Below are positions 791-43,446 of a stretch of DNA of 64,000 bases, piece by piece. Location: positions 12,338,001 through 12,402,000 of the forward strand of contig NC_043024.1 of NCBI RefSeq assembly GCF_006345805.1, read 5' to 3'. Each line of letters begins with the position of its first letter. Positions within the stretch are counted from its first letter, which is position 1. The DNA comes from Octopus sinensis. Lineage: Eukaryota. The position numbers and the translations under genes were made by a program. The notes under the pieces were generated by a model. The model saw only the letters and a list, made by a program, of their open reading frames with translations, did not search any database and was not told the DNA's origin.

Positions 791-946
791 TCACAAACGG
801 TTCCGGTTTGAACCTCCACTCACTGCTTTCCTCTTCCAGAACCAAATTTGTCGATCAATGCCTGTGCAGGGCTTCATTAACAGCGTCTTCCCATCCATTG
901 ATATTTCCATGCACTTCAGTGTGTTCACATGTAAAATTGTTCGATC
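791..946 (-). CDS. pgant9: GALNT terminal coding exon (lectin gamma subdomain): DRTILHVNTLKCMEISMDGKTLLMKPCTGIDRQIWFWKRKAVSGGSNRNRL*
   Basis: aaattcacag acceptor, phase 0, C..C..QIW repeat, TGA at 793-791. Confidence 0.92.
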   Translation of the reverse strand, partial: DRTILHVNTLKCMEISMDGKTLLMKPCTGIDRQIWFWKRKAVSGGSNRNRL

Positions 947-2990: not shown

Positions 2991-3119
2991 CTCTCGATAC
3001 TGCCATTCTTGGTTCCCGTGTTGACTGTGGCATGGGTATATTATAACATTTTCACCTCCTGAGTAATCTAAACAGCCATCATCACGCCGAATTTCATCAT
3101 TTTTACTTAGCATCCAGTA
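2991..3119 (-). CDS. pgant9: GALNT lectin beta-subdomain exon: YWMLSKNDEIRRDDGCLDYSGGENVIIYPCHSQHGNQEWQYRE
   Basis: tttcgttcag acceptor, G|gtgagt donor, 129 nt; CLD...PCH...GNQEW. Too short for the ORF track, so read manually. Confidence 0.95.
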
Positions 3120-4898: not shown

Positions 4899-5003
4899 CT
4901 GGTTTCCTCCCTGATTATGGCACGGCCACATAATAACTGGTTTGTGCATGTTCTGGTGATCCACAGAGGCATCAACACACATGGCTTTCTGTTTGTTTCG
5001 GAT
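4899..5003 (-). CDS. pgant9: GALNT lectin alpha-subdomain exon: IRNKQKAMCVDASVDHQNMHKPVIMWPCHNQGGNQ
   Basis: ttcag acceptor, G|gtatgt donor, 105 nt; CxD...PCH..GGNQ ricin-B repeat. Confidence 0.94.
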
Positions 5004-7547: not shown

Positions 7548-7676
7548 CTCTCCCGACGCTAATGCTTCGCCAGGTATAAAAAGATCAGGATAGACATTCT
7601 TTATATACCAGTCGAATGAATGACATTTTAAACGTTCACGTAATTTTTTCCTGTCTGTGACATCACCAAAATCTCC
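7548..7676 (-). CDS. pgant9: GALNT constitutive exon: [43 protein letters not shown] (end of catalytic domain and linker)
   Basis: ttttag acceptor, G|gtaagt donor, 129 nt, phase 0-0. Confidence 0.95.
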
Positions 7677-9513: not shown

Positions 9514-9699
9514 CAAATCATAATTAAAACGTTCATAATAATAATTTTTATATTCATCCATCCATACTTCTGCTAATCGTACTGAATTCTTTTTTACAAC
9601 ATTTACACCTGTACGCCACTTGTATGGGCTTCTTTTTCGGAATATATGTCCTACATGTGAACAGGGGATTATTTCTAATGTACCACCACACATCCATAT
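9514..9699 (-). CDS. pgant9: GALNT constitutive exon: [62 protein letters not shown]
   Basis: ttcttccacag acceptor, G|gtgagt donor, 186 nt, phase 0-0; CSHVGH and the flexible-loop region. Confidence 0.96.
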
Positions 9700-12118: not shown

Positions 12119-12236
12119 CCTAAATGAAAGTTCTAGGTTCTCACCACCCCAAATATCCATTCCAGCATCATACGTTCCAAGCTCTGTGAAATAGGCACGA
12201 CTAATAGCAAATAGGCCACCTGCCATGGTAGGAGAT
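12119..12236 (-). CDS. pgant9: GALNT constitutive exon: [39 protein letters not shown] (Gal/GalNAc-T motif)
   Basis: acag acceptor, G|gtaagt donor, 118 nt, phase 2-0; its first base completes AG+A (Arg) or AA+A (Lys) from any B variant. Confidence 0.96.
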
Positions 12237-19525: not shown

Positions 19526-19529
19526 CTGC

Positions 19530-23212: not shown

Positions 23213-23423
23213 CTAATTGGTGCTGTTAAGTCAGACATGTTTCTATAGAATTTCGATGGAAGCATCCAGTTGAATATCAAATTCCAGTCAAAACGGCCTA
23301 TTTGTATGCTACTTCCTACTGAAGTGACAAAGTGTAGTGTACTGTCATCAATCTGGTCAATCACTGGGGTCACAGCATAGCGCTTGTCAGTAGCTATTCG
23401 ATCAAGAATAGGCTCCAGCCAGC
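23213..23423 (-). CDS. pgant9: GALNT catalytic exon, alternative variant B3: GWLEPILDRIATDKRYAVTPVIDQIDDSTLHFVTSVGSSIQIGRFDWNLIFNWMLPSKFYRNMSDLTAPIR
   Basis: ttttatatccag acceptor, AG|gttggt donor, 211 nt, phase 1-2, no stops; homologous to B1 and B2. Confidence 0.88.
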
Positions 23424-24449
23424 CTGGATATAAAATTAGACAATTATTTTAACTGGTTAAATGTCTACATCTCTGTAAATTAGTTTGTTTATCATTAATA
23501 AGAGTATAATTTTTGCCAATAATAAATTAACCTCATTATCTTAAGAGATAGTATTTAGTTACAGCATTTCATCTTCCAGGTACTCAAGTCAAAATTTGCC
23601 TTTGATTGTAGAAGCTAATAGAATAAAATTGATTTAGTCAGTTAAGCTCTCTTCAAATATATGCTTTCATCAGACATCAATATTTTCATTTACAATTCCA
23701 CACAGCTTTGATTTCTGTTCTTGGATGAGTACAAAGTACAAGACTGAACTTTCAATCATTTTCTGATTTCTGATCTGACATTTCTCAGAGTGAATCCTAT
23801 GAATAAATTCAAGTATACTATGAAATAAGAAGTCTGATTAAAAATTTGTTTTAGCAAAAAAAAAAAAAAATCCCCCCCAAAATTATATTTACCATTTTCA
23901 GAATATTAAGTTATCATATATTATATATTATTTAAATAAAAGCTCTCAAACAATTTTCATTTAATATAAAATGGCAGAGTTGTCTTTAAATTATGGTTTT
24001 GCATTCCACGATTTTTGACAAAATCATTTAACAGATTCTGTGACAAAATAAGTTTAGGAATGTATTTCATCACAACACCATTGACACAGGAATTTGAAGT
24101 GATATTCCCTTCAGTTTAGAAATAAAGGTTTCCTGGTTCTAATTCAGTCTGATACAGTGTAGTTTGACTATTTCTAGGAATAAGACAATGACTAAAGATG
24201 AAACTGATTGATACAAATGTTTTATGTTCATCTCTAAGAGTGAACGAGGTTAATGGTTTGGAAAATTATAATCTTATTTTAAACAATTTAATTATGCATC
24301 CAGTTTAATTGTTATTTGCTTGGTATAAATAAAAAAAATGTTTTTAAAACAATATAAAGAAAGAATGTAATAATAGCTAAACAAAAATAATAAAGAATTG
24401 AATAATAATAATAATAATAAAAATGAAAACAATATCAACAACAGTAACA

Positions 24450-24910
24450 ACAATACTGATTTTGTTTGTCTCTCCTACATGTTACTATATGCGGCCTTCG
24501 GTGCACTAACACCTTGTCTGTCTGGAAGTCAAGGCCCCAGAAGATCTTTGCCCTCTCGCTTTCGCCCATTACCTTTTCCAGTGTATGTTGGTACCAAGCA
24601 CCCAATTACCTCATAGCCATACTTCCAGTTCAGTCGTCAGTGAATGCTTTGTCGTTTCTGTGCTCTTTCTGCACAAGACTTTCACAAGCATTTAACAATG
24701 CAACCCACACATGCTGCACGGTTCATTGCACTTGTATGGTATATACATCCGTTTTCTCTGAGTTGGTATCCAATGCCAGGTCCTGGGCAGTGACGATTAG
24801 GCTTCTTTCAGTCTTCTTTCAAGGTTACTCTTTGCTGAGCCACCTCCACGATGCCTCCCCACGGTACACACAATATCTTCAATCTACAACATCACAATAT
24901 TGGATACTGT
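24450..24910 (-). mobile_element. R4/Dong-like LINE fragment
   Basis: Minus-strand SLIVTAQDLALDTN resembles the IAAQDQAL.T motif; flanked by (AAT)n/(AAC)n. Confidence 0.55.
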
Positions 24911-24949
24911 GCAACACTTTCAATAATAATAATAATAATAATAATGATG

Positions 24950-27900
24950 TTTTCTACTAGAGGCACAAGGCCTAAAATTTTTGGGAAAGTGTTATTTAAT
25001 TACATCAACCCCAATATTTGATTAGTACTAATTTTATCAACCTCCTGAAATATTGCAGAAGTGGGCAGGTCAATTACAACAACCCCAGTGTGCAACTGGT
25101 ACTTAATTTATCGACTCTGAAAGGATGAAAGGCAAAGTTGACCTCGGTAGAATTTGAACTCACAACCTAAAGACACATAAAATGCCTCTAAACATTCTGT
25201 CCAGCATGCTAATGATCCTTATTTCTTTACTGCAATATTAATAACAAAATAGTTGTTGTTTTTTTAAAAATTATTTAGCGATAAGGATGAAAGGGGTACT
25301 ACAAAGAGAAATTAGGTAAAAAAAGAGGTGGGATTTTATGCAGAATCAATTTACAACAAATGCTTTTATATAATCAAATGCTTGATAATGCAACTTCTAC
25401 CAAACTACGCTGACATCAGCAATCCAGTGCATACAATACATTCTCTCTACAATCATCGCTCAATTCTATAACAGAACTCAAACCACAGAGCTGTGAGCTC
25501 TGTCATCAAATGCTACATTACAGATTCTATATGAAATAGTCAGCCCACGCTCAACATTTAGCCTTATAAAACATTGCTCAATCCATACAACTCACTCCCT
25601 ACACATTCACAACAACAAACGCGAAAGCAGCCAACAAAATGTGACATGGGGCTCGTAATCTGCACAGAAAATGCAAAGAACATTAAAATAACAACGAGAA
25701 ATAACAAATGTCACAAACAAAAGCAGAACATTATCAACACAGCTGTGAATTTCCATCAAAAGAGTGTCAAGACACAGCTCAGAAATCAGAGGTGCACTGG
25801 ATGGCGGTGTTGTAGACACACGGAGAAAATTGTTGAAATAATAATAACAATAATAATGGTTTCGAATTTTGCCACAAGAGCAGCAGTTTTGGGATGAGTA
25901 TATTACATGAACCCCAGTGTTCAACTGGTACTTATTTTATCTTTTCTACTCTAGGCACAAGGCTCGAAATTTTTGGGGAGGGAGCCAGGCGATTAGATCG
26001 ACCCCAGTATGCAATTCGTACTTATTTTATCAACCCCCAAAGGACGAAAGGCAAAGTTGACCATATAAAAATTTGGAATACCACTACGGTAGATATATAT
26101 CTCAAACTGACGTACCAAACAAATACTAGGGGTCTAAACATCTTTCTCTCAATATCAGGAGTTTCTCTTTTAGAAATTAGGAAACAGGAAGAAACTCGAT
26201 TGGACAATAAAAGACTTGAGAATATTTCCTCAAGAACTCTTTTAATATAAAAAGTCAAGGCAACAACAAAACCCTTCAGCAGAAGATTAAAGCAAAAGGC
26301 AAAAGATGACCCCCAACGAAAGTAGAAAAGCTGGAAAGAAAAGGTTATGCACGGAAAATATCAAAGGGTCAACAACGGATCTAAATCAATGGGTCAAAGG
26401 TCAGACACGCACAACCCTTTCACCTAACGAATTCATTTTATACATATATCAGGAAAACGAAAAAAAAAAAAAAGGTTGCAAGACGCAACGAAAATTTAGG
26501 AGAATAAAAATAAGAAAAACGTGGAAACTTTACCGGTCGATGTGTTTCCATCACAAGGAACGAAAAGAAAATGATTTTCCTCAGACAGAATAGAAAAGAA
26601 AAAACAACAAAAACGAATCGCCTCCCTTGTTTGCAATGAGAGTTACCTCTCTTGTTTGCCAAGGGAAGTTACTCTTGATGTAACGATGTCTTGCAACAGA
26701 ATTTACAAATCTTTTCCAATAATTAAACCAATTCAGCAGATTTATTACAACAACAACAACAACTCTCCGAGGCAGTTTGATCGGCTAGAAACTACAGCCA
26801 AATCTCCTGAACAACACACATGTAATGAAGGAAGAACACAATAGATAGTTGTCCTGTCATCGCAGGAACATCTTATATTACAGATTTGCTCGTTGCTTGA
26901 ACTGAGCTGACTTAAACAACAGCAACAACAACAACACAATCCGTTAGAAATCGATGGAATCTAAATATATAAGGATTCACTGTGTATCTGTATGTGTGTG
27001 GGTGTGCGCTAGTAGAAACAGGTGTAAAAGTATTTGTGTAGATATGTATGTTGTGTGTGTGTGTTGGTAAGTAAAGTGAAGCATTGTAAGTTCAAATGCA
27101 GCAATTAGAAATTTGCAATGGAGCAGATTTCAAAAGAAAGTTTGAAATGTGTGTTAAAAAAAAAAATGGTGCAGATTTAACGTAAGAGATATTAAGAAAA
27201 AATAATAAATGAGAAAAAAAATAGACACTAAGAAGTAAAAGTAATAATAAATTTTTCAAATTTTGGCAAAAGCTACCAAAAGGGTGAGCCAGGTTAGTTG
27301 ATTACATCAACCCAGGAAACGGAAAGGTAATTATGAACAGAGTCAAAGGAAATACCACAATCCATTTTGTTTGAGGCACCAACGATTCCGTTAGCTCACC
27401 ACTATAATAAACTTTCAGACACAAAGCCTGAAATTTGGGTGAGGGGGATAATCGATTACATCGACCCCAGTATGCAACTGGTACTTAATTGACACCAAAA
27501 GGATGAACAGGATGGAATTTGAACTAAGAACAGTGATAGACGAAATACCACAAAGCATTTCGTCCATTATGCTAATGGTTCTGCTGGCTCACAGCCTTGC
27601 TCACCTTTATATTAACAATAATTCTTTCTACTGTAGGCACAAAGCATGAATTGTTTGGGAAAGGGTGTAGTCCACTACATCAGCCCCAGTGCTAAATTAG
27701 TGCTTATTTCATCGATCCTGAAAGGATCAAAGGTAAAATTAGCCTCAGCGGAATTTGAATTCGGAGCAAAAAGATGGGACAAAATGCTGCTAAACTTTCT
27801 GTAACGATTCTCTCAGCTTGCTTCTGTAATAACAATAATGAAAATAATAATGGGTTCTATATTGGCAGAAGACCTCATGTTTCCAGGGAGGGCTCTAATC

Positions 27901-28030
27901 AATTATATCTAACTTTAGTACAATTATGGTACATTAATTAATTAATCTGGAAGAAATGAAAGGTAAAGTCAACTTTCAAAGAATTTGAAATCAGAACCCA
28001 GAACAAAAACAACAAGCAATTTGTTCAATG
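24950..28030 (-). repeat. Cluster of Meta-like SINE copies between exons B2 and B3 (~24950, 25060, 25860, 25950, 27420, 27630, 27860)
   Basis: Recurrent ccccagt..caactggtactt..tttatcgacc..gaaaggatgaaaggcaaagt.gacc..ggaatttgaactca, all in the same orientation. Confidence 0.75.
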
Positions 28031-28059
28031 CTTTGATGATTTTGTCTACCTTTCCTTTC

Positions 28060-28122
<63 letters not shown>

Positions 28123-28200
28123 GAAGAGGAAGAAGATGGAGAATTATTAATAGTATTAATAATAATGATGAAAAATTGATAATGATTTTAATGAACTAAC

Positions 28201-28408
28201 TTGACTGGTGCACAAAAATCTGAGAAATTCTTATAGAAGCTAGTGGATGCCATCCACCTGTAAGTTAGGGACCAGTCAAAACGGCCAATAGATACAGATT
28301 TGCCTGCACGTGTGAAATGTAAATCAGTATCACTGATGAGACCAATCATAGGTGCCACAACATGTGTATGGTTCATCTCGATACGTGAGAGTAATGGTTC
28401 CAGCCAAC
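28201..28408 (-). CDS. pgant9: GALNT catalytic exon, alternative variant B2: GWLEPLLSRIEMNHTHVVAPMIGLISDTDLHFTRAGKSVSIGRFDWSLTYRWMASTSFYKNFSDFCAPVK
   Basis: caactacag acceptor, AA|gttagt donor, 208 nt, phase 1-2, no stops; homologous to B1 over its full length. Confidence 0.85.
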
Positions 28409-28654
28409 CTGTAGTTGAAGAATTTTCAGAAAGAAAAAAAAATAAAACAATAACATAAACCACAACAACAACAACAGTGACAAACAATCAATTTCTCTGT
28501 TGCTTTATAATAATTTCTTACAAGGGAAGCAGTTTTTGATACGAGAGGTCACTCAAATTGGCTCCAACTTACCTTACAATAAATGACTGGTTCTTTATCA
28601 TATAAATTGATAGAATAATACAAGTTATTTTGTTTGGAACTCTAACAATTCTGC

Positions 28655-28697
<43 letters not shown>

Positions 28698-28879
28698 CAC
28701 CATTGTTTAATGCATGCATGGGTAGGACGGTTGACAAGAGCCACCCAGGTAGAAAGTCTAGCCAAGGTTTTTGTGTTCGTTTTGGCAGGGATTTTTTACA
28801 GCTGGATGCCCTTCCAACACCAACCACTCTGCAGAGTAGACTCAGTGCTTTTTATGTGGCACAAGCACAGGTGTAGTTA

Positions 28880-29200
28880 ATCAGGTTATTCAGGAAGGTG
28901 TCTTCTCCAAAGACTGGTGTAGCAGCATTACAGTCAACTGCTTCAAGGATGCCTTCGGTAGAAGCAACTACAGAGGAATCAAACTGCTGCATCAGGTCAT
29001 GAAAATTACAGAGACAGTTATATCTCAACTAATTAGGGATAGAATTAAACTAGACGAGATGCAGTTTGGTTTTGTTCCTGGGAGATGAACCACAGATGCC
29101 ATCTTTATAGTGAGAGAGTTGCCAGAAAACCATTTGGCCAAAAGTGAGCCATTGTACTTAGCTTTCATCAACCTGGAGAAGGCTTTTGACAGGGTTACCC
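28880..29200 (+). mobile_element. RTE-clade RT fragment
   Basis: NYRGIKLL..VMKITE..EMQFGFVPGR*TTDAIFIVREL...AFINLEKAFDRV; same family as 19130-19525. Confidence 0.8.
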
Positions 29201-29855
29201 AGGGAACCCCAGTGTTCAACTGATGCTCATTTTATTGACCTAGGAAGGATGAAAGGCAAAGCTGCTTTCGTAGGATTTGAACTCAGAACGTAAACACAGA
29301 TAAAATGCAACCAAGTATTTTGTCTGGTGTGCTAATGATTCTACCTGGTTGTTGCATGTGCATAAGGGCTGACATTCTGGGAGAAGGGCTTAGACCATTA
29401 CATCGACCCCGAGGCAGAATTAGTTCTTATTTTATTCACCTTAGAACTGTTTCTCATGCTTTTTACCCTTGTGCAGCCCTTAAAATAAATTACATTCCTC
29501 AAGGAACCCCTGCACAAAAAAATTATATACCATATCTTTCTCATATTTTTTCATCATAGTTCACATCGTAAATATCGTTTTATACGCACACACACACACA
29601 CATATATATGTATATATATATATACACATATATATATACACATATTTATACACACACACACACACATATATATATACACATATATATTTGTAAAAAATGA
29701 AGTTCGAAAATGCTGCTGTATTATACAATTTTTAATTTTTATATATACATTATAACATGTTTCAGTTCCTGAAATGAACCTTATCAAAAAAAGTTATATA
29801 TATATATACATATATACATACAAACACACACACATATATATATATATACATACAC

Positions 29856-29886
<31 letters not shown>

Positions 29887-29920
29887 TATATATACATATA
29901 TACACACACACAAATATATA

Positions 29921-29951
<31 letters not shown>

Positions 29952-29952
29952 G

Positions 29953-31950
29953 TTAGTTAGTTAGTTAGTTAATTTGGCTCAAAAGCAAATAGCAAGGCCA
30001 TGTAGGGGGACATGGAGTTAAGTACAGGGTGGTGTTCATGTAAAGAGTTCAGGCCACTTGAGGTCAAGGGAGGCTTTGAACAAAGCGGTCGTCGGCATCT
30101 TCACCATCTCGTCTGGCAGCTTGTTCCATGGATCCGCAACCCGGACGGAGAAAGCTCCTCTCCTTCGATTGAGATGAAATCGTCGCAGGTAGAGCTTTTC
30201 GGAATGACCCCGCAGCCGACGCTCTGGAGCAGGAGTCAAGAACAGCTCTTTCGAGAGGTTACACTTTCCGCTTATGATGCTGTGGGCGAGAATGAGATCA
30301 CCACGGCGGCGGCGTTTTTCAAGAGAATAAAGGTCGAGCGTCCTCAGCCTTTCTTTGTAGGACAAATTTTTGAGACCATGAACCATGCGGGTAGCCAGCT
30401 TCTGGACTCTTTCGAGATGCTGTATGTCTTTGAGGAGATAAGGAGAAGAGGCTTGAATCCCATACTCCAATATGGGTCTCACCAGCGTGACATAGAGTGG
30501 TAGGAATATGGCTGCTGTGAGCATTCCGAATGACCGTCGAATCAAGAACAGAATTCCGCGTGCTTTGTTGGCAGCATGGACGCACTGGGCCGAAGGCGAA
30601 AAGGAGGAATCCACCAAGATACCTAGGTCCTTTACCTGATCGGTCCTCTCCAGCAGCAGACGACTCGGCTCGAAATCAAGTTGAGTTGCAGGAGTAGAGC
30701 CGACAGGCAGATGACAGCACTTTGACACGTTCAGACACAGGTCCCAATTGTTAGACCACTTCCAAATTTGGTGGAGGCATCGACGAAGATCCTCTATATT
30801 ACCGCGAGGAGCGACCAGTTTGATATCGTCGGCAAATAGAAGGGTGTGTTGCGTGAGGTCGTCGGGCAAGTCATTTATGAAGACTAAGAACAACAAGGGC
30901 CCAAGCACTGAACCTTGAGGCACGCCACTGCTCGCACTGGAGACGTCGGACCGTGAACCATTAACTTGGACTTGGAAGGAGCGATCTGAGAGGAAGGCAC
31001 CAACCCATCGTACAATATCCGGATGGAAACTATATGCTTGAAGCTTGACAAGCAATAGGCGGTGGTTTACCGAGTCAAAAGCTTTGGCAAAGTCCAGTAA
31101 AACGATGTCAACAGCATCACTATCATCGAGGATGCGCGTCACCAATTCTTCCATTACTAGTAGGTTGGTCAAGCATGATCTCTTCGGCACGAAGCCGTGT
31201 TGGGAATCAGAGATAGAGGCTGTGTTTAGGAGGTGGAGCATCATACTTTTCTTAAGGATGGTTTCGAACATCTTGCTGATAATTGATGTAAGGGAAACCG
31301 GTTGGTAGTTAAGCGGGTCTTTGCGGCTCCCTTTCTTGAAAATTGGGCAGATTATCGCTGTTCTCCAGTCTGCAGGTATAACACCCGTCGCCAATGACAT
31401 ATTGAATAGTCGTGTTAAGGGCTCGCAGATGACCGGAGCCAACGCTTTGATAACCCGTGGGTGTATGCCGTCAGGGCCATGACCTTTGTTGACATCGAGG
31501 CCTTGAATAACACGTTTGACTTCGTCCCGCGTGATGACCAATCGAAGCATTGGAGGTACCGATCTATCAAATGGAGGGGGTTCACGACCATCATCTTGTT
31601 TGAAAATAGTTGAAAAAGCCTCGGCAAATAATTGACTCTGTTGATAAGGGTCCTCAATCGATACGCCTGTTGAGTCTACCAACGTTGCAATCTGGTTGTT
31701 CAAGCGGGAATTCTGCTGGACATGGGCAAAGAAGGTTTTTGGATTGCTACTGGCATTTGCCGTGATTTTGTATTCGTAACTGAAGCGTTCTTTCTTTTCA
31801 GTTTTCATGGCTCGGTCTCGTTGAGTTTTGTACACCTCAAAAGCTGCAGTCGAATCCAGATTTTTGAATTCAGCCCAAGCAATATCTCTGAGTCGACGTT
31901 CTCGTTTAACCCTCTTCGTCACAGGCTGTCCATAAATTACAGACGTCACT
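29953..31950 (-). mobile_element. Young 5'-truncated CR1/L2-group LINE with an uninterrupted 637-codon RT frame and (TAAC)n tail
   Basis: ORF 30036-31949 has no stops; NYQPVSLTS, QHGFVPKRSC, LDFAKAFDSV, GVPQGSVLGPLLF, FADD, KDLGILVD. No endonuclease domain and no ATG start. Short 3' UTR and TAAC repeats at 29953-29970. Confidence 0.93.
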
Positions 31951-32134
31951 AAATATATCCTCAGTGATTGTTATATTTGTTTTGATAACATAATATGTTA
32001 GATAGGATGATGTCTTATATTACAATAACCAATAATATGTTGTGCATGTGTAGTAATATTATAATCACGAAATTAGCAATAGCTTTTCGCACTCTTTCTC
32101 GCGAAACCCCTAGGAACCTTAATAAATAATAATA

Positions 32135-32355
32135 ATCCTTTCTACACTAGACAAAAGGTCTGAAGTTTGGTGGGGGGAGGGGCCAGTCGATTAGACTGAC
32201 CCCAGTACACAACTGGTACTTAATTTATCGACCCTGAAAGGATGAAAGGCAAAGTCAACCTTGGCGGAATTTGAACTCAGAACGTAACGGCAGATGAAAT
32301 ACCGCTAAGCATTTCGCATGGCGTGCTAACAATTCTGCCAGCTCAACACCTTCCA
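32135..32355 (-). mobile_element. Near full-length Meta-like tRNA-derived SINE
   Basis: Minus-strand head GAGCTGGCAGAATTGTTAGCACG..., B-box GAGTTCAAATTCC, central GCCTTTCATCCTTTCAGGGTCGATAAATTAAGTACC. Confidence 0.8.
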
Positions 32356-32360
32356 CTTTC

Positions 32361-32410
<50 letters not shown>

Positions 32411-32479
32411 CAACAACAATAATAATAAAACAAACAGGTGTCTTTAAAACCTAAATCTATCAGATCCCAAATAAACTAG

Positions 32480-32782
32480 CACTCTGTTGGTTATCACAAT
32501 GAGGGTTCTAGTTGATCTGATCAACAGAACAGCTCAAGAAATAACCATGCAAGTGGCTGAGTACTCCACAGACATAGTTCTCAGCGAGTTTCAGCATGAC
32601 ACAGAATGTGACAAGGCTAAACCCCCCCCCCCGCCCCGAATTACAGGTGCAACTCATTTTTGCCAGCTGAGTGGACCGAAGCAATGTGATATAAAGTGTC
32701 TTGTTCAAGGACACAACTCACTGCCAGGAATCGAACCCACAACGTTATGATCCTGAACTGAACACCCTAACCACTGAGCCAA
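32480..32782 (-). mobile_element. tRNA-headed CORE-like SINE
   Basis: Minus strand: GGCTCAGTGGTTAGGG...GGGTTCGATTCC...GTGTCCTTGAACAAGACACTTTAT; related copies near 39320, 48245 and 62340. Confidence 0.7.
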
Positions 32783-33808
32783 ATATGAAAACGTTGGTGG
32801 TGGAAATGGAAGTGGTGTTGGTGGGATTGATGGTGACAATGGTAAAGTGATGGTGTTGATGGTGTAGTGGTATCACTAATGATGATGGTGGTGTGGGTGA
32901 TAGAAATGGTGGTAGTGTGATGGTGGTGGCATAATTCAGAATGGTAGTGAATGACCTTAGTAAACACAAGAAACCCAACAATTTGAGGTTAATTTGTCTT
33001 CTTTTGTGGTTTTGTGGAAAAGAAATCTGAGATTCTGTTGTTGCAGAACATCACATCTCACATTGACCGTTTACAAGAATTCAGATTATTCTGTCAAATG
33101 AAAGGCTTTTTCATTTCCAATGCTTCAAATCTTATAGATTTGTGATTTCGATGACGTGTTTGTTTATTTTTAGAATGACATTGTTGCAAAAGTGTGAGAG
33201 GCAGGATCTGGCCAGTTCAAACCTAAAACAGGCAGAATATTTTGGCTGGATATGGCTGGCTTATATACTAAAGGATTAATGTAGTTACACACTAATATAG
33301 GCAAAGAGATAGACAAGGGTAAATACAGAAATTAAAAGATTGGTAGATAAAAGGACAAATAAGAATCTGTTTTTATAAAGAAAAGGAGGAAACTTTGAAA
33401 TCCCTTTCAACCATTTTTCTGCCTTATGAGGATACATTCCTTACTGAGTGACCCCAACCCACTCATGTGCCCCTTATCCTTTTCACAAACCCATGACCCT
33501 ATTCTTTGCCTTTTCCTTCTCTTACCCCATTTCCTAACACTGTTTCTCTAAGTCTATCCACTAACTCCCTCTGCCAACATTAAAACCTGTCCTTATCATC
33601 TCAACATCTCCCTTTTCTCTATTCCCCATCTCAGTTATGAAGGCTCTGAGGTACAAGGTGACCTGACTGGTGCTGGTGCCATGAGAAAAGCAGTAAGAGA
33701 AGGCCTAAATGTGAGATGCCTTTCGTAATTCTTTGGATATAAGAGAGCAAACGGTAGCCATGAGAACCATCAAAAAAGGCACAAAATGCAAGATGATTCT
33801 AATTTCAT

Positions 33809-33876
<68 letters not shown>

Positions 33877-34619
33877 AGCGTATAGAAGAAGAGATCTAAT
33901 AAATTGGACAAATGTATGCACTTCTACATCAGGCGTTCTCAACCAGGGTCCACATGACCCTTAAGGGCCCATATAAGATTTTGTTGTTGACGTTTATGAA
34001 AAACTAAATTGGTTTTGAAAGACAGAAAATAGTTATAAAAAATAATAGGATCTTTTAAAACATGGGATGGTTAAGAGCCACTACTCTACATGCTCACCTA
34101 ATCTGCTAGAAATAGCAACCAAATCTCTCTCAATTCACACTCATAACAGAAAGAATAAGAAGACACAAGAGAGAATGTAGTTCTAGATATGCTATACCTG
34201 AATAAAGGCTAGATGGTCACAATGGGAACGTTTTTGATCCGAAGACTAAAATAAATTTAAAACTAAAACAACAAATATTAATACAGCAGCATCAATAACA
34301 ACATCAATCTCTACCCTGCCTTCTCGTTTAGTGTCTGCAAACAGCTGGTTTAATTGATTTGGTCAATAAAAACAGAGAAAGCAAAACCCTCCTTACTTTC
34401 CATCAATAATTGGTGTTGCTAATTCAATACATGCAAAAATTACTAACGAGTTTCAGAGTTGTTGAGTGAGTTTGACTGGAGATGTTGCTGTTGTTGTTGT
34501 TGTTGAGAATCAATTTACTTTCAGGGAAAAAAGAGTCAAGTTTGCGATTTAACAGTGAATATAAAAACTGTTTACATGTTTCACTTCCTATCATTTATTT
34601 TGTTAATTGGATTGTATCA

Positions 34620-34882
34620 ATTAGCAGCAAATTTGCAAAGTTTGTTACAACATTGGCCAGAATACATTATTGGTTCTGGTTCTCAACACTCTCAATGTAT
34701 TGTATCTGGTTGAGACCAATTTTACTGATATGCCTTTCATGGTGGTGGGGCTGAATGCAATATACAGGTGGGCTGATGACAATAACATGCAGTTTAATGC
34801 TGGAAAATTCCAGGCCCAGCACGACCAGTACCAATGAAGTGCAAACAGGATACACCGATCAAGGTGTGTGTATGTATGTGTA

Positions 34883-34925
<43 letters not shown>

Positions 34926-36560
34926 GTGCATACACCCATAAATGATGCAAAGACACATACCAAAGTATGCTGCATTCTGTAATGACAAAAGAGAAGAATG
35001 TCATGGTGGGATTGGATTGTATATCTGTGGAGATGTCACACCACTAACCCTGCAGTTACATTCAGACTTAGTGACTCACTCATAGTGAGTCTGGACATAA
35101 TATGCACATTATATCACCCACCTAATGCTTTAAATCTTGATGGTAAATTTGTAGAAAACCTTGAAATGATAAAAGAAGTACTAATGAAGCTAGGTCAATG
35201 CATTTATGTACTTCTGAGAGGTGACTTCAACCACCCAAACATTCCGTAAGGAATGACATACAAAGAATGCAATCAAGCAGAATCTCTGCTTGATCTCATG
35301 AAAATGATGTCCAAGGAGCAAATTGGAATCTCCTCTTTAGCCAGAAACAATAATATATTAGACCCTTGCTTCACCAACAATGTAAAGGTATCACTGAGAA
35401 TTTTCTCAAACCACAACACGACAAAACCAATAATGTATGACCCCAAACTAATTAATAATGTATTCCACACAAATGACACTGAAGAAAAATGGATTATCCA
35501 GGAAAACTGGATTTAAAAGTGTCTATATGCAAGACATTGATATGAAACTTAAAGAATTCCTGTGAATAGTGCAAGCCATATGTGTTAAAGTTGTTCCAGA
35601 GAAGAGAGTCAGTACATACAAAAGCAACATTCTTTGAGACAGGAGAGTCGTTATGAGGCAAAGAACAAAGATCTCTACTCAATTAAACAACTTAACAACA
35701 GCAAGAAATCCCTCGTCAAAGAAGCACTCTCAGTGATAAAAAATAAACTCAAACTTTCCCATGAGAAAGAAAAGGAAGAAAGATAAATGAGGGTGGTTGA
35801 AAATATATACATGAATCCTGAAACCTTTTACAAGTTTGTGGAAAAATCTGCAAATAAACAAGCTTGATGAGTTCTTCAACATTGGAGATCAAAATGGGAA
35901 AGAGGAAAGCTTTGATTACATTGACATAAATGAGGAAGATGTAATATGAGCCATTGATGAGATGAACTCAAATTCAGCAATGGGCCCAGATGGATTTTCA
36001 GCTGTTCATGCAAGATAAATCTCACAAAACCACTTTTTCAGAGTTTCCTTGTCTGTGATAAACTTTCCAAAATGTTAAAAGATGTTATAATATACTTTGA
36101 TCATAAAGGAAGAAGCAGATCAGATGCTAAAGAATTAAAGGTCTATCTCTCTGACCTCACATACCAGCAAAGTCATGGAACATGTCATCAGAAGGAGACT
36201 GACCCCATTCCTGGAAGAGAATAACTTGCTCGCAAACACACAACATGGTTTCTGCCCAAAGAGGAACTGCCTCACATAGCTACTACAGCATTACGACTGG
36301 GTGCTAAAACAGCAGCTCAACCACTCGAATAGGGATGTGATATATCTCGACTTTGCCAAAGCCTTTGGCCAAGTTGATTAAGGGATGATGAATCACAAAC
36401 TACATCACTGGGAAACTAAGAGAGTGGTTGTGTGTTTTTCTCAAAGAGAGAAGTCAGACAGTTGCAGCCAATGGCTCTCTCTCTCTCACCAGGGAGACAC
36501 CAATTCTCAGTGGAATCCCTCAAAGAACTGTACAGGAACCATTACTGTTTGGGGTGGCTC
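34620..36560 (+). mobile_element. Degenerate CR1/L2-group LINE fragments (same family as 19530-22420)
   Basis: ADDNNMQFNAGKF, RGDFNHPNI, RNNNILDPCFTNN, SLTSH, QHGF, IYLDFAKAF. Confidence 0.8.
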
Positions 36561-36776
36561 TCTCAGTGATAAGCTGAAGAGTAGCCGGTGGTATACAACT
36601 CACTTGAATTCTTATCACTTCTGAGGTTCCGCCCGTTATGAAACGTATGTAGGTTGGATCTCACCTACTTCATTCTGTAATTCATACATATGTTTATACA
36701 CACACACACACACACACATTAATGTGGAATGATGAAAATGAGTGCTCAATGCTGCATTGGTGGATATAATTTCTTT

Positions 36777-37134
36777 ATTTGTGAATTAAGGCTACCATTG
36801 GTTTCCTAGTGTTTTAACAATTTTTCAAACTGATTACATGGAGAAAGGTGTTTGCCTTCATTTTGGAAAATACCCCTTGTTTAGTTTGCGGGGATTCTCA
36901 TGAATTCTCCTGAATAAAACAAATCAAGGTATGTCCACCCAAGAGTAACATCCCTTAATTCATCGTTTTATTCACAAGAATTTACCAGGATCTCTACGAA
37001 CTAAATGAGGTTGTGTTTTCCAAAATAGAGGCGAACACCTTTTTAGATGTGATTGGCTTGAAAAATTTTTAAGCCACTTGGATATTTTCCCACTTTTCTT
37101 AACATGAAACCAATGGTAGCCTTAATTCACAAAT
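36777..37134. repeat. MITE-like fold-back element
   Basis: Perfect 29-bp terminal IR atttgtgaattaaggctaccattggtttc / gaaaccaatggtagccttaattcacaaat plus diverged inner arms. Confidence 0.8.
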
Positions 37135-38068
37135 GCACACACACACACATTTACAAATCACTTACAGAAACACTATGCAATAACATGGAAAAAGTAATTG
37201 GCTAGTTATTGTGCAACCAACAATAGCAACAAAATAAGGGAATAATAACAGTTTTCATGATTACAGCAGATAAACTAATAACGACATATTTAAATAAATT
37301 AAACACTTTTTAAAAACGGAAATATTTCTCCAAACTTTTATCTGAATCTGAATTCTTCCTATTTAGTCTTGATTCCCTGAAATATATCCTTGCATCATTA
37401 TTAGAAACCACAGAGGTATCTTAATGTGTCTTCAGATGAAATTTGGGATAACTCACAGAAAATAAAGCAACAACAACATCAACAATCATAATAATTGCAA
37501 TAATTACTTCTTATAAAAGGTAAAAAGTTTGAAATTTAATGATTCAGTCAATTCTCGTTACTTGATTAATATTGTATTTTATCAACTTGGGAGAAACAAA
37601 AGACAAGTTCAAGCCTGGAGGGATGTCAACTCAGAATGTAAGAACTGGAACAAATACCACAAGGCATTTTTCTCAATGCTAACATTTCTGCTGACCACCA
37701 CCATTAATAATTGTTTCTAAGACAAGCAGAACGTCTGAAATTATTTATGGGTGGAGGGTGGGGTACTGTTAGTTGATGACATCAACCCCAGGGCTTGACA
37801 AGTTATTTTTTTTTATTGATTCTAGAAGGATGAGATGAAAATTCAACATTACTAGGATTTGAACTCAGAACATAAGGTGCCAGAACAAAGACAGCAATGA
37901 ATAAAGTCAGAACAAATGCCACAGTGAAAAGAATTAACTTTAAGGAGAAAGGTCTTGCTTATTAGGAAGGAGTGTGAAAGTAAATAAGAAAGCGTAAGTG
38001 AATGCAGAGAGAAAGAAGAAGTATATGTTTATTAGGTAGAAGAAGAATGAAGCATAACGAAAAATGTA

Positions 38069-38100
<32 letters not shown>

Positions 38101-38178
38101 GTTCATAGATGAGAATTAGATATTCTCCATATAGAATACACCTGGTAAAGCTCAAAAGGTTTAAACTTGAGTGGGTAG

Positions 38179-38794
38179 AGGAGTAAATGTAAAGATAAGC
38201 AAGTAATGCTGATATACAAAGAATATTTAATATATTAAATACAAAAAAATGTATATATAAGTTTAGATAAAAAAAGGTCCGACTTACACAGAATAGAAAT
38301 GATATCAAAGATTGAAGGGGGTTGATGGAAAGTGTTAGAATCCAACAGCTGTTTTTGGGAGTTCAGTGGTCCCAAATAATTATTGTAAATTGATTCCATT
38401 GATGGATGAGATGAGCCTCCATCTTCAGAGAAGAAATCTTACATTAGAGGTGTTGATAGTAAGGGGATTAAAGATGGTAAGGAGATTAAAGATTTCATCT
38501 TTAATCTCCTTACTGTCAACACCTCTAATGTAAGATTTCTTCTCTGAAGATGGAGGCTCATCTCATCCATCAATGGAATCAATTTACAATAATTATTTGG
38601 GACCACTGAACTCCCAAAAACAGCTGTTGGATTCTAACACTTTCCATCAACCCCCTTCAATCTTTGATATCATTTCTATTCTGTGTAAGTTGGACCTTTT
38701 TTTATCTAAACTTATATATACATTTTTTTTGTATTTAATGTATTAAATATTCTTTGTATATCAGCCTTACTTGCTTATCCTTACATTTATTCCT
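38179..38794. repeat. Near-perfect ~616-bp palindrome (~300-bp arms, 3-nt loop at 38494-38496)
   Basis: The arms are reverse complements with few mismatches; one extra ~18-bp duplicated unit lies in the left arm next to the centre. Confidence 0.95.
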
Positions 38795-40778
38795 ATATAT
38801 ATATATATATATATAAGAGAGGCATAAAAAATGAATAAGACAGTGTAAAAATTAAACACTGCATTAAATCCCATTATTCTCTCTCTCTCTCTAATTCGGA
38901 AAATGAAATCAACCGAACTAGTTTCAGTGGTTTCATAACTCAATAAGATCAGTTTCTCACTTGACAATTCATGGGTAACAACCTGTCTCCAAAAGGAGGA
39001 TTGAAATGTGTTGTACCCCTGCTAAGTGTATGAGAAGCAACATGTGTTACTGGAAGCTATGCACATGCTGGGCAATATGGGTAAAGAACCTTCCAAGTAA
39101 AATGCTTATGTCACCTAAAAATTGTTGGAATTATTATGTTGGATATGAAATTACTAATACAAATCCATACTCTCACCAAACCGGAATAAATGAATAAATT
39201 TGTCTGTGCATCTGTCTAACTATCTATCTATCTATATGTAGACATTACGATACTATTATTTTGGTTCATGTATCTTCAGTTACAACTTTTGTGTGTGTGA
39301 GTGTTTATGTACACACACACCCGTGCATGGTTTAGTGGTTAGGTTGTTCTGATTTTAAGATTGTGGTTTCGATTCTGGGACTGAGCAATGCATTCGGTTC
39401 TCAAGCCAAACACTGCATTTCGCATTGCTCCAGTCCAATCAATTAGCAAGAGTGAGTAATATACACATCACAGAATTCAGGGAACCAACCTTATGAGCCT
39501 TTGGCCTGGGAAGGACCCTTGACTTTTCCAGTTGAGGGGAGTTTGTCTTGTCATATGAGCTGCTTGCTGAGCACAACCACACTGGTATTGGTGCCATGAA
39601 AGAAGCACCCAGTACTTCTGTAAAGAGGTTGGCATTACGAAGGCCACCCAGCCTTTGACCGTGCCAAAATGGTTCCTGTAATCTTGCAATTTTTGATGAT
39701 TTGATGATGTCATCTGAAGATACAGTTTTCCCTTCTACGAAAAACTGTTATTGAAATAAAAAGTAAGAAAGCTTTGAATAAGGGTAAAGCTTTATCTTCA
39801 CATTTTCTATTTGTATCTTGAGCTCAAGAATGGAACTGAATTGCAAAACATGGATTAATATTTTGCTTGCTCTTCACAAGATGTTTTGAAATATATTGGT
39901 TGGTTGGTTGCTCACTCACTCACACACACACACACACAAAAGTAACAAAAACAGATGGAGTTTTAAACACTGATTATATGTCATGAACAATATACCACAA
40001 CAAACACAAACATCTACCTATATAAATATATATTTACACACACACACACACATTCATACATACCTACATACATACATACACCCACACATATAATCATAAT
40101 CTAACATCTATTTTCCATGATGTTACTCGTTGGAGAGTTTGACATGAGCTGGCAAGGCCCAATGCTGCATCAGCCACCTGTGTCTGTTTTGGCAAGGTTT
40201 TTATGGCTGGATGCCCTTCCTAACACCAACCACTTTATAAATGTGAACTGGATGCTATTTACATGGCACCAAGTAACTCACAAAGCAAAGATCCCTTGAG
40301 AGGGGTGGGCATTACAGGAGGGGACCTTGTGCCAGGTGATGAAAGGTTAGAGTGTGACAGAGAGACAGAAACAGGTATCTTGCTGTAGAGGGGACACAGG
40401 ATTACCCAGTCAGAGGGAAAGAGATAGATAGATAGATAGAGAGAGAGAGATAGAGATAGAGAGATAAAGAATGATGAAGAATGAGAGAGAGAGTGGAAGA
40501 GAGTGAAGTGTGAGAAAGATGGTGGCAAAGTGCTAGGGCATACCCTGAAGGTATGGGGATCAGGGTATAAATGGGATGGTAGAGTATTGTTAAGGGAGTA
40601 GGGATTTCATATGAATGCAAAGAGTGGGGAGGGGGGAATGCAGTGACGAGTGAAAGGTGAGTATTTAGAGGAGGTGGGGAGGGATAGCAATCATACACAC
40701 ATTTATATACATATATACATATACAACGGCATACACATATATGTATATGTATATATATGCGTGCACACACACAAGTAC

Positions 40779-40814
<36 letters not shown>

Positions 40815-41079
40815 GCACGTATGTTTGTATAGCTGATTAGACGAGGTAGTTGCAGGAAGCCACAATAAAAGAAACACAATGAGCGTAAGGGTGCTTAGCA
40901 TTTATTGGTGCCTCACAACATGGCCAGGGGACTTCAGTCTTTGAGAAGAGTCATAAAATTTGGTCATTTTATAAGATGACAATAAACACCAAATTTGTGT
41001 GCCTGTGTGAGTGTGTGTCCAAACACAGATATAAATACATCTATATGTATGCATCTATATATATGTGTGTGTGTGTATG

Positions 41080-41113
<34 letters not shown>

Positions 41114-41268
41114 TTTAAATATGTACATATACAAGGTTTTGATATTTAAAATAATAGCAGAGAATATGTAAATAATTATAATCTGAGAATGGAATGCCTC
41201 TTTCCTTTTTTATTTTGTATTTATTTGGTGGAGCTCTACTTGCTGCTGTCTTCTTTTTTTTGTATTTA

Positions 41269-41329
<61 letters not shown>

Positions 41330-41592
41330 ATATATATACACATACATTTGTGTATGTGTGTTGTCTTTAACACTTTAAAAAAAAGACAGGTGTTTGTGTG
41401 TGTGCATGCATTTTGTACATGTGTACACATATGATGTATGTATGTGTGTGTGTATATATATATATATATGCATACATTTATATATATAAATATATACACA
41501 CACAAACACGCATACATATATACACATACAGGGAAAGAATCCTCTTTTTTTTCTTTCTCTACATTTTGTCTTCTACTGGTTCCAAAATATAC

Positions 41593-41806
41593 CTGATTGG
41601 TGCGACATCACTGTTCCGTCTCTGTCGTTCCACATCTGGTATTCCATGCCATGTGAATTGTAAACTCCAATCAAATCCTCCTATACTTGTGCTCTTAGCG
41701 CTACCGTATTGGTAGCGGAATGACTCATCCTCGACCACATCTATCACAGGAGTCACAACATTTGACTTGTTTTCTCCTATTCTGTCTAGCAAAGGCTCCA
41801 GCCAGC
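41593..41806 (-). CDS. pgant9: GALNT catalytic exon, variant B1 (canonical): GWLEPLLDRIGENKSNVVTPVIDVVEDESFRYQYGSAKSTSIGGFDWSLQFTWHGIPDVERQRRNSDVAPIR
   Basis: aattctag acceptor, AG|gtatat donor, 214 nt, phase 1-2, no stops; canonical GGFDW. Confidence 0.95.
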
Positions 41807-41961: not shown

Positions 41962-43446
41962 ACCCAAAACCATGCTAATAGCTTGGTTTTTTGTGAGTCA
42001 ATTTTGATAAACCTTTTCTCAGCTGATTTGCACACTATGGCAACACCTTTGTTATGTTTTCATTATTTTGTGTAACGTCCTTTCTTCTTTTATTTCAGAT
42101 TCTTCAGTTTTTGGGTGAACCACGCTATTAGCCCATCTAGACATTTTTTTTTTTTCATAAAATGAAGAGTAATGATAACATATTTAAGCATACATTGAGT
42201 ACATATTTAGCAGAAAACCATAATAATGTTATAACATTTATTGACATAATGAATTATTTGGACACATGACCGCCAAGGAAGAAACAATCCAATTGTGGGA
42301 CCTCCAAGACTGTTACAGCTAGGGATTTAAGGAATATTGGCCTCAAGTTATGTGGGAAACCTGGACAAACAAGCAAAGCCATTTTCACCACTTCCGGACT
42401 TCCTCATGTACAGAAAACCAGCAGAAACTGCATCCTTGGGAGAATCCCAGAAACTGACCCCTCAGAGGAGTTTGAGGCTTCAATGGGCCCAAAAGTACAT
42501 GACATTAGACATGAGTTGTGTTTTGTTCACTGACGAAACCAGGGCAACCTTTGGTGAACCTGGTAGTTTCGCAAATGGTTGGGTCTATTATGGAGATGAG
42601 CGCCAACAACGTTTGCGACATCAAACATAGGATGGAGGGGTCATGTTGTGAGCTGGTATCATTGGAGACAGACCTGTTGGCCCAGTCACCATGCCTGAAG
42701 AGATTAAAATGCCCGCAGCTGTCTACTGCAGTCTCCTGAACGAGGTCTTGGATCCCTGGCTAGATGACGTACCACTGCCACCTCTAAGGAGTCTTGTATT
42801 CATGCATGACAATGCTCCCTCCCACTCTGCTAGGACCACCCAAACATTCCTAGGGTTTTACGGCATACAAGGTGAAAGGTCGATGGTGTGGCTGCCAGCA
42901 TCTTTGAATCTCAGCCCTACTGAAAATCTTTGGTCTATCATTACACAAGATATTTATGCTGATGGACGCCAATTTATGCTGAAAGATGTCTTATGGGCAA
43001 CCATCAAGGCTGCAGGAGAAGCAATCCAATCTGCTTCTATTAAGAAATTGACAGATTCCAAGACAAATAGGGTTTTAAAAGTTATCCATCCAAATGGCAC
43101 TCATGTGGCTAAATAATTCCTTATGTCAATAAATGTTATATTATTATTATGGTTTTCTGTTAAATTTATACTCAATGTATGCTTAATACGTATCGTTACT
43201 CTTTATTTTCTGAAAAAAAAAAAATGTCTAGATGGGCTATTTTCATTCAAAAGCTATTAGTGTGGTTCACCCAAAAACTGAAGAATCTGAAATAAAAGAA
43301 GAAAGGACGTTACACAGAATAATGAAAACGTAACAAAGGTGTTGCCATAGTGTGCAAACCAGCTGAGAAAAGTTTTATCAAAATCAATTCACAGAAAACC
43401 AAGAAATCTTAAATTTCACTCCTAAGCTATTAGCATGGTTCTGTGT
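41962..43446 (+). mobile_element. Tc1-like transposon with long (~280-320 bp) TIRs; transposase degenerate and partly deleted
   Basis: IRs ~41967-42249 and ~43121-43441; VLFTDETR, FMHDNAPSHSART, WLPASLNLSPTENLWSII; flanked by TA/CA microsatellite. Confidence 0.9.

What the first reader, a model, noticed from the sequence alone, without database searches (positions are those of the whole stretch)
23213..41806. Three-way mutually exclusive exon cassette in the catalytic domain of a GalNAc-transferase
Seen in sequence: between the single-copy DxH exon (60859-61023) and the single-copy TMAGGLF/WGGEN exon (12119-12236) lie three homologous exons. All start GWLEP and end AP(I/V)(R/K), all have AG/GT ends, phase 1-to-2 and no stops, with lengths 214, 208 and 211 nt. 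Each is 3n+1, so including zero, two or three shifts the frame and only one-at-a-time inclusion yields protein. I found no duplicate of any other exon, so this is exon-level duplication, not a gene array. The copies are strongly diverged in amino acids yet keep frame, in-frame indels and splice sites, which suggests purifying selection. Established: Drosophila PGANT9A/B use alternative exons in the lectin alpha subdomain to change substrate preference. Inference: here the switch sits in the catalytic domain, so one gene could give three enzymes with different acceptor specificity. I am not aware of this arrangement being described.
Basis: partly seen in the sequence, partly recalled or inferred. 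Interest (0 to 1): 0.92.

Follow-up and report, generated by a model that had tools for sequence, protein, structure and literature searches.

The report
Swappable groove exon in octopus GalNAc-transferase
An octopus gene for an enzyme that starts mucin-type sugar chains on proteins holds three copies of one exon, only one of which fits the reading frame at a time, so the gene likely makes three enzymes with different target-binding grooves, and oysters, mussels, abalone, chitons, ribbon worms and crabs have annotated variants that swap the same segment.

Summary
Three homologous exons (214, 208, 211 nt) sit in one ten-exon GalNAc-transferase gene, and only single inclusion keeps the frame. 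RefSeq already lists the three Octopus sinensis products (X1-X3). The closest solved structure is Drosophila PGANT9. The exon matches human GalNAc-T2 residues 233-301, including proline-pocket residues F280 and W282. The copies are old (synonymous sites saturated) yet intact. The cassette is not octopus-specific. Annotated isoforms with identical flanks swap this segment in oysters (up to 5 versions), mussels, abalone, a chiton and two ribbon worms. Most share a derived signature (Gly to Arg/Lys, His to Met), which suggests an origin in early molluscs or before. Decapods swap a shorter form, likely independently. A second octopus paralogue also carries two copies. The concept is known: PGANT9A/B (lectin) and PGANT5A/B (another catalytic segment) change specificity by splicing. 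My nine paper searches did not find this exon described. The scan noted a similar pair before, in a sea urchin. No RNA junctions or enzyme activity were measured here. Verdict: new variant of a known kind, interest 0.57.

The parts
60859..61023 (-). Constitutive exon 4 (A), carries the DSH metal-binding motif; donor GTAAGT, ends in phase 1
41593..41806 (-). Alternative exon B1 (214 nt), the conserved form of the groove segment; RefSeq X1 and X4; donor GTATAT
   Evidence: 68 of 71 residues identical to the Sepia (Acanthosepion) pharaonis segment
28201..28408 (-). Alternative exon B2 (208 nt), derived form; RefSeq X3; donor GTTAGT
23213..23423 (-). Alternative exon B3 (211 nt), derived form; RefSeq X2; donor GTTGGT
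12119..12236 (-). Constitutive exon 6 (C), TMAGGLF and WGGEN motifs
9514..9699 (-). Constitutive exon 7: third metal histidine, catalytic flexible loop and following helices (likely the region that Drosophila pgant5 splices); single copy here
   Evidence: correspondence to PGANT5 398-457 inferred from the description
7548..7676 (-). Constitutive exon 8, end of catalytic domain and linker
4899..5003 (-). Constitutive exon 9, lectin alpha repeat (the region that Drosophila pgant9 splices); single copy here
2991..3119 (-). Constitutive exon 10 of the genomic series, lectin beta repeat
791..946 (-). Last coding exon, lectin gamma repeat and stop codon. Coding exons 1-3 lie beyond the window end, at window-equivalent 77308-77890, 73569-73722 and 66587-66753

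Best explanation
One polypeptide GalNAc-transferase gene, likely the PGANT9/GLY-5 orthologue, carries three intact copies of one catalytic-domain exon of which only one at a time keeps the frame, and each mRNA likely takes one copy, which would give three enzymes identical except for about 70 residues that line the acceptor-peptide groove and so would differ in which Ser/Thr sites they glycosylate. SHOWN: the exons, the frame logic, the single copy of every other exon, the exact match to three RefSeq isoforms, constraint on the copies, the mapping to GalNAc-T2 233-301, and annotated swaps of the same segment in other animals. INFERRED: B1 is the default form and B2/B3 are regulated forms. Exclusivity likely comes from regulated choice among weak donors, with zero or double inclusion removed by nonsense-mediated decay; steric exclusion cannot apply across introns of 13.2 and 4.8 kb. 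The derived exon likely arose once in early molluscs or before and was copied again within lineages. All three isoforms are predicted to be active, because DSH, WGGEN and the third histidine lie in shared exons.
For: Frame test: 3 of 8 inclusion sets are open, all single. RefSeq X1-X3 each carry one copy. 8 of 9 constitutive donors read GTRAGT against 0 of 3 alternative donors. Between copies pS is 0.73-0.76 (saturated) and pN 0.41-0.47; dN 0.59-0.74 against dS 2.8 or more. Best solved match is PGANT9 at 720 bits against 548 for GalNAc-T1. The B2 isoform model superposes on PGANT9 with TM 0.90 by target length. T2 F280/K281/W282 align with F/T/W in B1, Y/R/W in B2 and F/N/W in B3; F280, W282 and F361 form the proline pocket and K281 gates the +1 position (bioRxiv 10.1101/2020.06.25.171371, passages). 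Distinct versions of the segment with identical or near-identical flanks: Crassostrea gigas 5, C. virginica 5, Ostrea edulis 4, Saccostrea 2, four Mytilus species 3-4, Haliotis rufescens 2, Liolophura 2, Lineus 3, Tubulanus 2, Scylla paramamosain 3, two Macrobrachium record sets 5 and 6. Matching derived exons stay 60-70 of 69-72 residues identical between oyster species for three types, and 43 of 71 for a fourth. Precedents in which splicing changes GalNAc-T specificity: PMC6115407 and bioRxiv 10.64898/2025.12.22.695686.
Against: No spliced reads were examined here. RefSeq X models are predictions and I did not see their read support. No B2 or B3 orthologue from another cephalopod turned up in three searches, and the 7 other cephalopod-like proteins examined all carry the B1 type. 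No activity data exist for any isoform. B2 changes the Asp that is invariant in 30 of 30 canonical segments (T2 D254) to Gly, and the B2 model falls to pLDDT 61-75 over residues 391-420, so B2 may be weakened rather than redirected. The AU test did not reject an octopus-only origin with B2 included (p 0.053) nor a chiton-only origin (p 0.089). The derived copies are long branches, which can group falsely.
Confidence: 0.68

Rival explanations
1. The cassette is real and used, but the derived exons tune the enzyme in another way: lower or no activity, changed stability, partner binding or Golgi behaviour, or changed donor-sugar handling, and not the choice of acceptor peptide.
For: The derived copies change residues invariant in 30 of 30 canonical segments: T2 G273 becomes R/K in 21 of 26 and V255 changes in 25 of 26. 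The exon also holds the position of T2 I253, a gatekeeper by the donor sugar (PDB title; passages); it is Met in 3 of 26 derived copies. B2 and B3 gain N-glycosylation sequons late in the segment. PMC6115407 notes that splice variants of other family members showed no change in specificity.
Against: The proline-pocket Trp is kept in 26 of 26 derived copies and the Phe/Tyr in 26 of 26, as expected if a peptide still binds. Keeping up to five different versions per gene is hard to explain by loss of activity. Catalytic motifs are in shared exons.
Confidence: 0.22
2. B2 and B3 are unused or rarely used relics of exon duplication in octopus, and the RefSeq isoforms reflect noise.
For: No junction reads seen here. 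No orthologue of B2 or B3 found in other cephalopods. B2 is the longest branch in the tree.
Against: Open frames, both splice sites and phase survive saturated synonymous divergence. In a substitution-only neutral simulation from B1, 160 and 199 of 10000 runs stayed stop-free and 0 of 10000 reached the observed amino-acid identity (the simulation ignores silent change on B1's own branch, so it overstates the case). B2 and B3 share the derived signature with annotated isoforms of other molluscs.
Confidence: 0.07
3. The copies come from separate gene copies or from a mis-assembly.
For: None found.
Against: All other exons are single in 194 kb. The copies are only 40-49% alike in protein, far beyond allelic difference. 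No N lies inside the gene. An older oyster gene model strings three such segments together in one gene (P0113), which points to the same tandem layout in an independent genome.
Confidence: 0.02

Closest known systems
RefSeq Octopus sinensis XP_029652604.1 (X1), XP_029652605.1 (X2), XP_029652606.1 (X3)
   Same: These are this gene's three single-exon products, letter for letter.
   Different: Automatic records named 'GalNAc-transferase 5-like', with no statement on function or on the cassette.
Drosophila PGANT5A/B (bioRxiv 10.64898/2025.12.22.695686; abstract, passages and Discussion read)
   Same: Alternative splicing inside the catalytic domain of a GalNAc-T changes peptide preference and is tissue-biased.
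   Different: Another gene (the GalNAc-T1 orthologue) and another segment (residues 398-457, flexible loop and two helices, after the WGGEN motif); two forms with modest changes. Here a segment before WGGEN is swapped, with about 60% of its residues changed and three to six forms.
Drosophila PGANT9A/B (PMC6115407; passages and section 8 read)
   Same: Likely the orthologous gene (best solved match); a duplicated exon acts as a specificity switch.
   Different: The fly switch is exon 8 in the lectin alpha repeat. That exon is single in the octopus gene.
C. elegans gly-5 exons 9a/b/c and gly-6 exons 8a/b (PMC4165533; passages read)
   Same: A three-way mutually exclusive cluster of homologous exons in a GalNAc-T gene.
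   Different: Exons of 102-111 nt, all 3n, one pair excluded sterically by a 34-nt intron. Their place in the lectin domain is recalled, not read. Here the exons are 3n+1 and kilobases apart.
Tandem duplicated exon substitutions as a class (PMC9741552; one passage read)
   Same: [quoted passage not shown]
   Different: The one passage that names the family does not mention molluscs, decapods or this exon.

Membership tests
Polypeptide GalNAc-transferase (GT27) | GT-A catalytic domain with DxH motif | tested here: met
   PF00535 above cut-off in 3 of 3 isoforms; DSH at residues 349-351
Polypeptide GalNAc-transferase (GT27) | Gal/GalNAc-T motif (WGGEN) and third metal histidine | tested here: met
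   PF02709 in 3 of 3; both align with PGANT9
Polypeptide GalNAc-transferase (GT27) | C-terminal ricin-type lectin domain | tested here: met
   PF00652, E 4e-27
Polypeptide GalNAc-transferase (GT27) | N-terminal membrane anchor and stem | tested here: met
   Hydrophobic helix within residues 7-43 and a low-confidence stem 40-183 in the model; Golgi location not tested
Polypeptide GalNAc-transferase (GT27) | Transfers GalNAc from UDP-GalNAc to Ser/Thr | not testable with these tools
   needs an enzyme assay
PGANT9/GLY-5 orthologous group | Closer to PGANT9 than to other paralogues | tested here: inconclusive
   Best of 16 solved sequences by 170 bits; arthropod hits are named 'transferase 9' and nematode hits 'transferase 5'. 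No whole-protein tree with all paralogues was built.
Mutually exclusive tandem-duplicated exon cluster | Homologous, similar length, same phase, between single-copy exons | tested here: met
Mutually exclusive tandem-duplicated exon cluster | Each copy is spliced into mRNA, one at a time | tested here: inconclusive
   RefSeq models carry one copy each; junction reads were not examined
Mutually exclusive tandem-duplicated exon cluster | Copies under purifying selection | tested here: met
   dN 0.59-0.74 against saturated dS between paralogous copies; orthologous dN/dS not tested
Dscam-type docking-site/selector cluster | One intronic docking site complementary to a selector beside each exon | tested here: inconclusive
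   No shared 11-mer among 600-nt flanks and no site pairing exactly over 11 nt with flanks of two exons. The test allows no G-U pairs or bulges and has no cross-species conservation.
Sterically or U12/U2-excluded cluster | Very short intervening intron, or AT-AC/U12 splice sites | tested here: not met
   Introns of 13184 and 4777 nt; all donors GT and acceptors AG
PGANT9A/B-type lectin switch | Duplicated lectin alpha exon | tested here: not met
   Lectin exons are single in 194 kb. Decapod records show both switches.

The most novel reading that the evidence does not exclude
The peptide-groove exon is a recurrent hot spot for building a GalNAc-transferase repertoire by splicing and not by gene duplication. 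An ancient mollusc and ribbon-worm cassette with its own derived groove chemistry (basic residue in place of the second Gly of GGF, Met after the pocket Trp) defines an untested specificity class. Decapods, a second octopus paralogue and perhaps echinoderms reinvented the cassette, and decapods multiply it with the lectin switch (all 6 combinations of 3 by 2 annotated in Scylla).
Probability: 0.4. Interest if true: 0.75.

Novelty: new variant of a known kind. Interest (0 to 1): 0.57.

Why it matters
GalNAc-transferases decide which proteins get mucin-type O-glycans, and paralogues differ all over, so it is hard to tell which part sets specificity. These isoforms are a natural swap series: the same enzyme with three (octopus) to five or six (oysters, prawns) versions of the groove segment. 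Assaying them would test directly what that segment contributes. If the forms are tissue-specific, they would also point to how molluscs glycosylate different mucus, shell or egg-coat proteins from one gene (inferred).

Tried and rejected
Sequencing runs for B2: no RNA holder listed. Cephalopod orthologues of B2/B3: one search gave 1 hit (the RefSeq protein itself), one search gave 4 hits, of which 3 resemble bivalve-type derived exons; of the 150 hits listed I read 16 and none looked like a B2/B3 orthologue. Fourth or decayed copy: none in two profile scans. Docking-site/selector search: shared k-mers no more frequent than in random intron pairs. The inverted pair that spans B1 (32170-32317 with 53421-53568) is a dispersed repeat with 30 matches in the 264 kb held, so I rejected it as a specific switch. 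Octopus-only origin: p-AU 0.053 with B2, 0.040 without; treated as unlikely, not excluded. In the smaller quick tree the oyster 'e' copies left the derived group and Tubulanus joined it; in the larger tree it was the reverse. The larger tree includes 18 or so columns that decapod isoforms share, which pulls them together, so it is weak evidence for a separate decapod origin; the different boundary and signature are the better evidence. Paper searches (9 of 10 allowed): none returned a description of this exon cassette; most hits were seen as listings only. Subscription journals are largely outside the library, and the supplements of the two bioRxiv preprints were not seen and may bear on novelty. 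Only one version of the segment was seen among the proteins read for Biomphalaria, Dreissena, Mya, four scallops, Patella and ticks; absence from annotation is not absence from the genome.
Full report
Observation. The three exons are at the stated places on the minus strand, with AG/GT ends, no stops and lengths 214, 208 and 211 nt. Joined between exons A and C, only the three single-exon sets of eight keep the downstream frame. The window is G000:C28:12338001-12402000. With 130 kb of neighbouring DNA added, every other coding exon appears once and no fourth copy appears. The gene gives a ten-exon mRNA. The chains with B1, B2 and B3 translate exactly to RefSeq Octopus sinensis isoforms X1, X3 and X2. 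A fourth isoform, X4, uses B1 and lacks 35 residues of the stem.

Identity. All three isoforms carry PF00535, PF02709 and PF00652. The best solved match is Drosophila PGANT9, 720 bits against 548 for GalNAc-T1. An AlphaFold2 model of the B2 isoform from a 77-row alignment has mean pLDDT 74.5, pulled down by the stem. Across B2 the ten-residue blocks read 97, 94, 88, 75, 75, 61, 88. The model superposes on PGANT9 with TM 0.90 by target length. The fold was expected from the alignment, so this shows compatibility only. Orthology to PGANT9 and GLY-5 is inferred from these scores and from the names of hits, not from a full tree.

What the exon encodes. B1 aligns with human GalNAc-T2 233-301. Counting along the printed T2 alignment places I253, D254, V255, L270, G273, F280, K281 and W282 inside the exon. 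F280, W282 and F361 form the proline pocket and K281 gates the +1 residue (bioRxiv 10.1101/2020.06.25.171371, passages; PMC11423303, passages). I253 is one of two residues changed in the engineered T2 of PDB 6e7i, and gatekeeper Ile and Leu residues by the donor sugar are described in PMC13596352 (passages). A groove role for V255 and L270 is recalled. At these places B1/B2/B3 read I/I/I, D/G/D, V/L/Q, S/S/Q, G/R/R, F/Y/F, T/R/N and W/W/W. The pocket aromatics are kept and their neighbours change. Net charge of the segment is -3, +1 and -1.

Selection. The copies share 27-30 of 67-69 residues. Synonymous sites are saturated (pS 0.73-0.76) while pN is 0.41-0.47. Frames, phases and splice sites are intact. 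These are comparisons between paralogous copies; orthologous dN/dS could not be computed. B1 is very slow: 68 of 71 residues match the cuttlefish segment.

Distribution. A search with residues 190-701 of X1 listed the best 120 of 1579 hits, and I read the members of 20 of those clusters (at most 15 listed per cluster). Isoforms with identical or near-identical flanks and a different version of this segment occur in Crassostrea gigas (5 versions), C. virginica (5), Ostrea edulis (4), Saccostrea echinata (2), Mytilus galloprovincialis (4), M. trossulus (4), M. edulis (3 listed), M. californianus (3), Haliotis rufescens (2) and Liolophura sinensis (2), and in Lineus longissimus (3) and Tubulanus polymorphus (2). 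Each set that was listed in full has one conserved B1-like form. I labelled rows canonical or derived by eye. Among 26 derived mollusc and ribbon-worm segments, the G273 position is R or K in 21 and the residue after the pocket Trp is M in 23. Among 30 canonical segments these are G in 30 and H in 29. One version only was seen for Biomphalaria, Dreissena, Mya, four scallops, Patella, ticks and cuttlefish.

Age. In a 65-row tree of the segment, 25 of the 26 derived mollusc and ribbon-worm copies, with B2 and B3, form one side of a 98/96 branch, and B1 sits with canonical mollusc copies. A 35-row quick tree gave a similar group of 15 of 17 at SH-aLRT 88. AU tests: abalone-only origin rejected (p 0.0016), octopus-only borderline (0.053 with B2, 0.040 without), chiton-only not rejected (0.089). 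The abalone derived exon is 45 of 71 identical to an oyster derived exon and 32 of 71 to its own canonical exon. So at least one derived exon likely predates the gastropod-bivalve split, and octopus B2/B3 probably descend from it. Only 71 columns and long branches limit this.

Repeats of the theme. Decapods swap a shorter piece that ends before the shared FNWH: Scylla paramamosain 3 versions, two Macrobrachium record sets 5 and 6 versions among the 15 of 27 members listed. Their derived forms keep Gly and His (9 of 9), and they also carry two lectin alpha versions; Scylla has all 6 combinations annotated. The different boundary and signature suggest a separate origin (inferred). Unnamed gene models with two to four such pieces in a row also exist. 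In the octopus genome a second GalNAc-T gene on contig C10 has two stop-free copies of the same exon (192 and 183 nt, both 3n, AG/GT, starting one residue later) between single DxH and TMAGG exons. Its use in mRNA is unknown.

How the choice is likely made. The introns between copies are 13.2 and 4.8 kb, so steric exclusion is out, and all sites are GT-AG. Eight of nine constitutive donors read GTRAGT and none of the three alternative donors does, as is usual for regulated exons (general knowledge). Zero, double or triple inclusion creates stops well before the last junction, which nonsense-mediated decay would remove (inferred). A simple search for pairing elements found nothing above background.

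Known systems. Drosophila pgant9 swaps a lectin exon and changes specificity (PMC6115407). Drosophila pgant5 swaps residues 398-457 of the catalytic domain, and one residue changes specificity (bioRxiv 10.64898/2025.12.22.695686). C. elegans gly-5 has a three-way cluster (PMC4165533). PMC9741552 lists this family among those with convergent tandem exon substitutions. The finding therefore works like these switches and belongs to their kind. What differs is the exon, the depth of change, the number of versions and the spread across molluscs. Nine full-text searches did not return a description of it; the library lacks most subscription journals.

Open points. Spliced reads, tissue pattern and enzyme activity were not measured, and B2/B3 orthologues in other cephalopods were not found.

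Verdict. Real, old and constrained cassette; about 0.9 that B2 and B3 are functional alternatives and 0.68 that they change acceptor choice. New variant of a known kind; interest 0.57.

Noticed in passing
G000:C10:26617197-26617388 and 26636517-26636699 (+); L015:197-388, L016:9517-9699: A second GalNAc-transferase gene has two intact copies of the same groove exon (192 and 183 nt, both 3n), 19 kb apart, between single DxH and TMAGG exons; the 5' boundary differs from the window's cassette, so the duplication is likely independent.
   Followed up: partly
window 38243-38729: Near-perfect inverted repeat in the B1-B2 intron: arms of 234 nt, 99% complementary, 19 nt apart, with no other match in the 264 kb held. 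Could form a long hairpin in the pre-mRNA, or be a foldback element or assembly artefact.
   Followed up: partly
window 41982-42275 and 43095-43403: Inverted pair of about 300 nt, 86% complementary, starting 176 nt upstream of the B1 acceptor; a transposase-like fragment lies between the arms by eye (42652-43113, no Pfam hit). Probably a decayed DNA transposon.
   Followed up: partly
window 30039-31970 (-): 644-codon open frame with a reverse transcriptase domain (PF00078, E 5e-31), LINE-like, in the B1-B2 intron, same strand as the gene.
   Followed up: partly
window 18963-19598 (+): Decayed reverse transcriptase fragment in the B3-C intron (PF00078, just under cut-off).
   Followed up: no
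G000:C12464:106903-265449: Four matches of equal score to the TMAGG/WGGEN exon on one contig, which suggests a recent tandem array of another GalNAc-transferase.
   Followed up: no
window-equivalent 77308-77890 (L002): The first coding exon gives an Asn-rich stem; RefSeq X4 lacks 35 residues of it.
   Followed up: no
proteins P0103, P0116, P0195-P0197, P0199, P0216, P0217: Scylla paramamosain records combine three catalytic versions with two lectin alpha versions in all six ways.
   Followed up: partly
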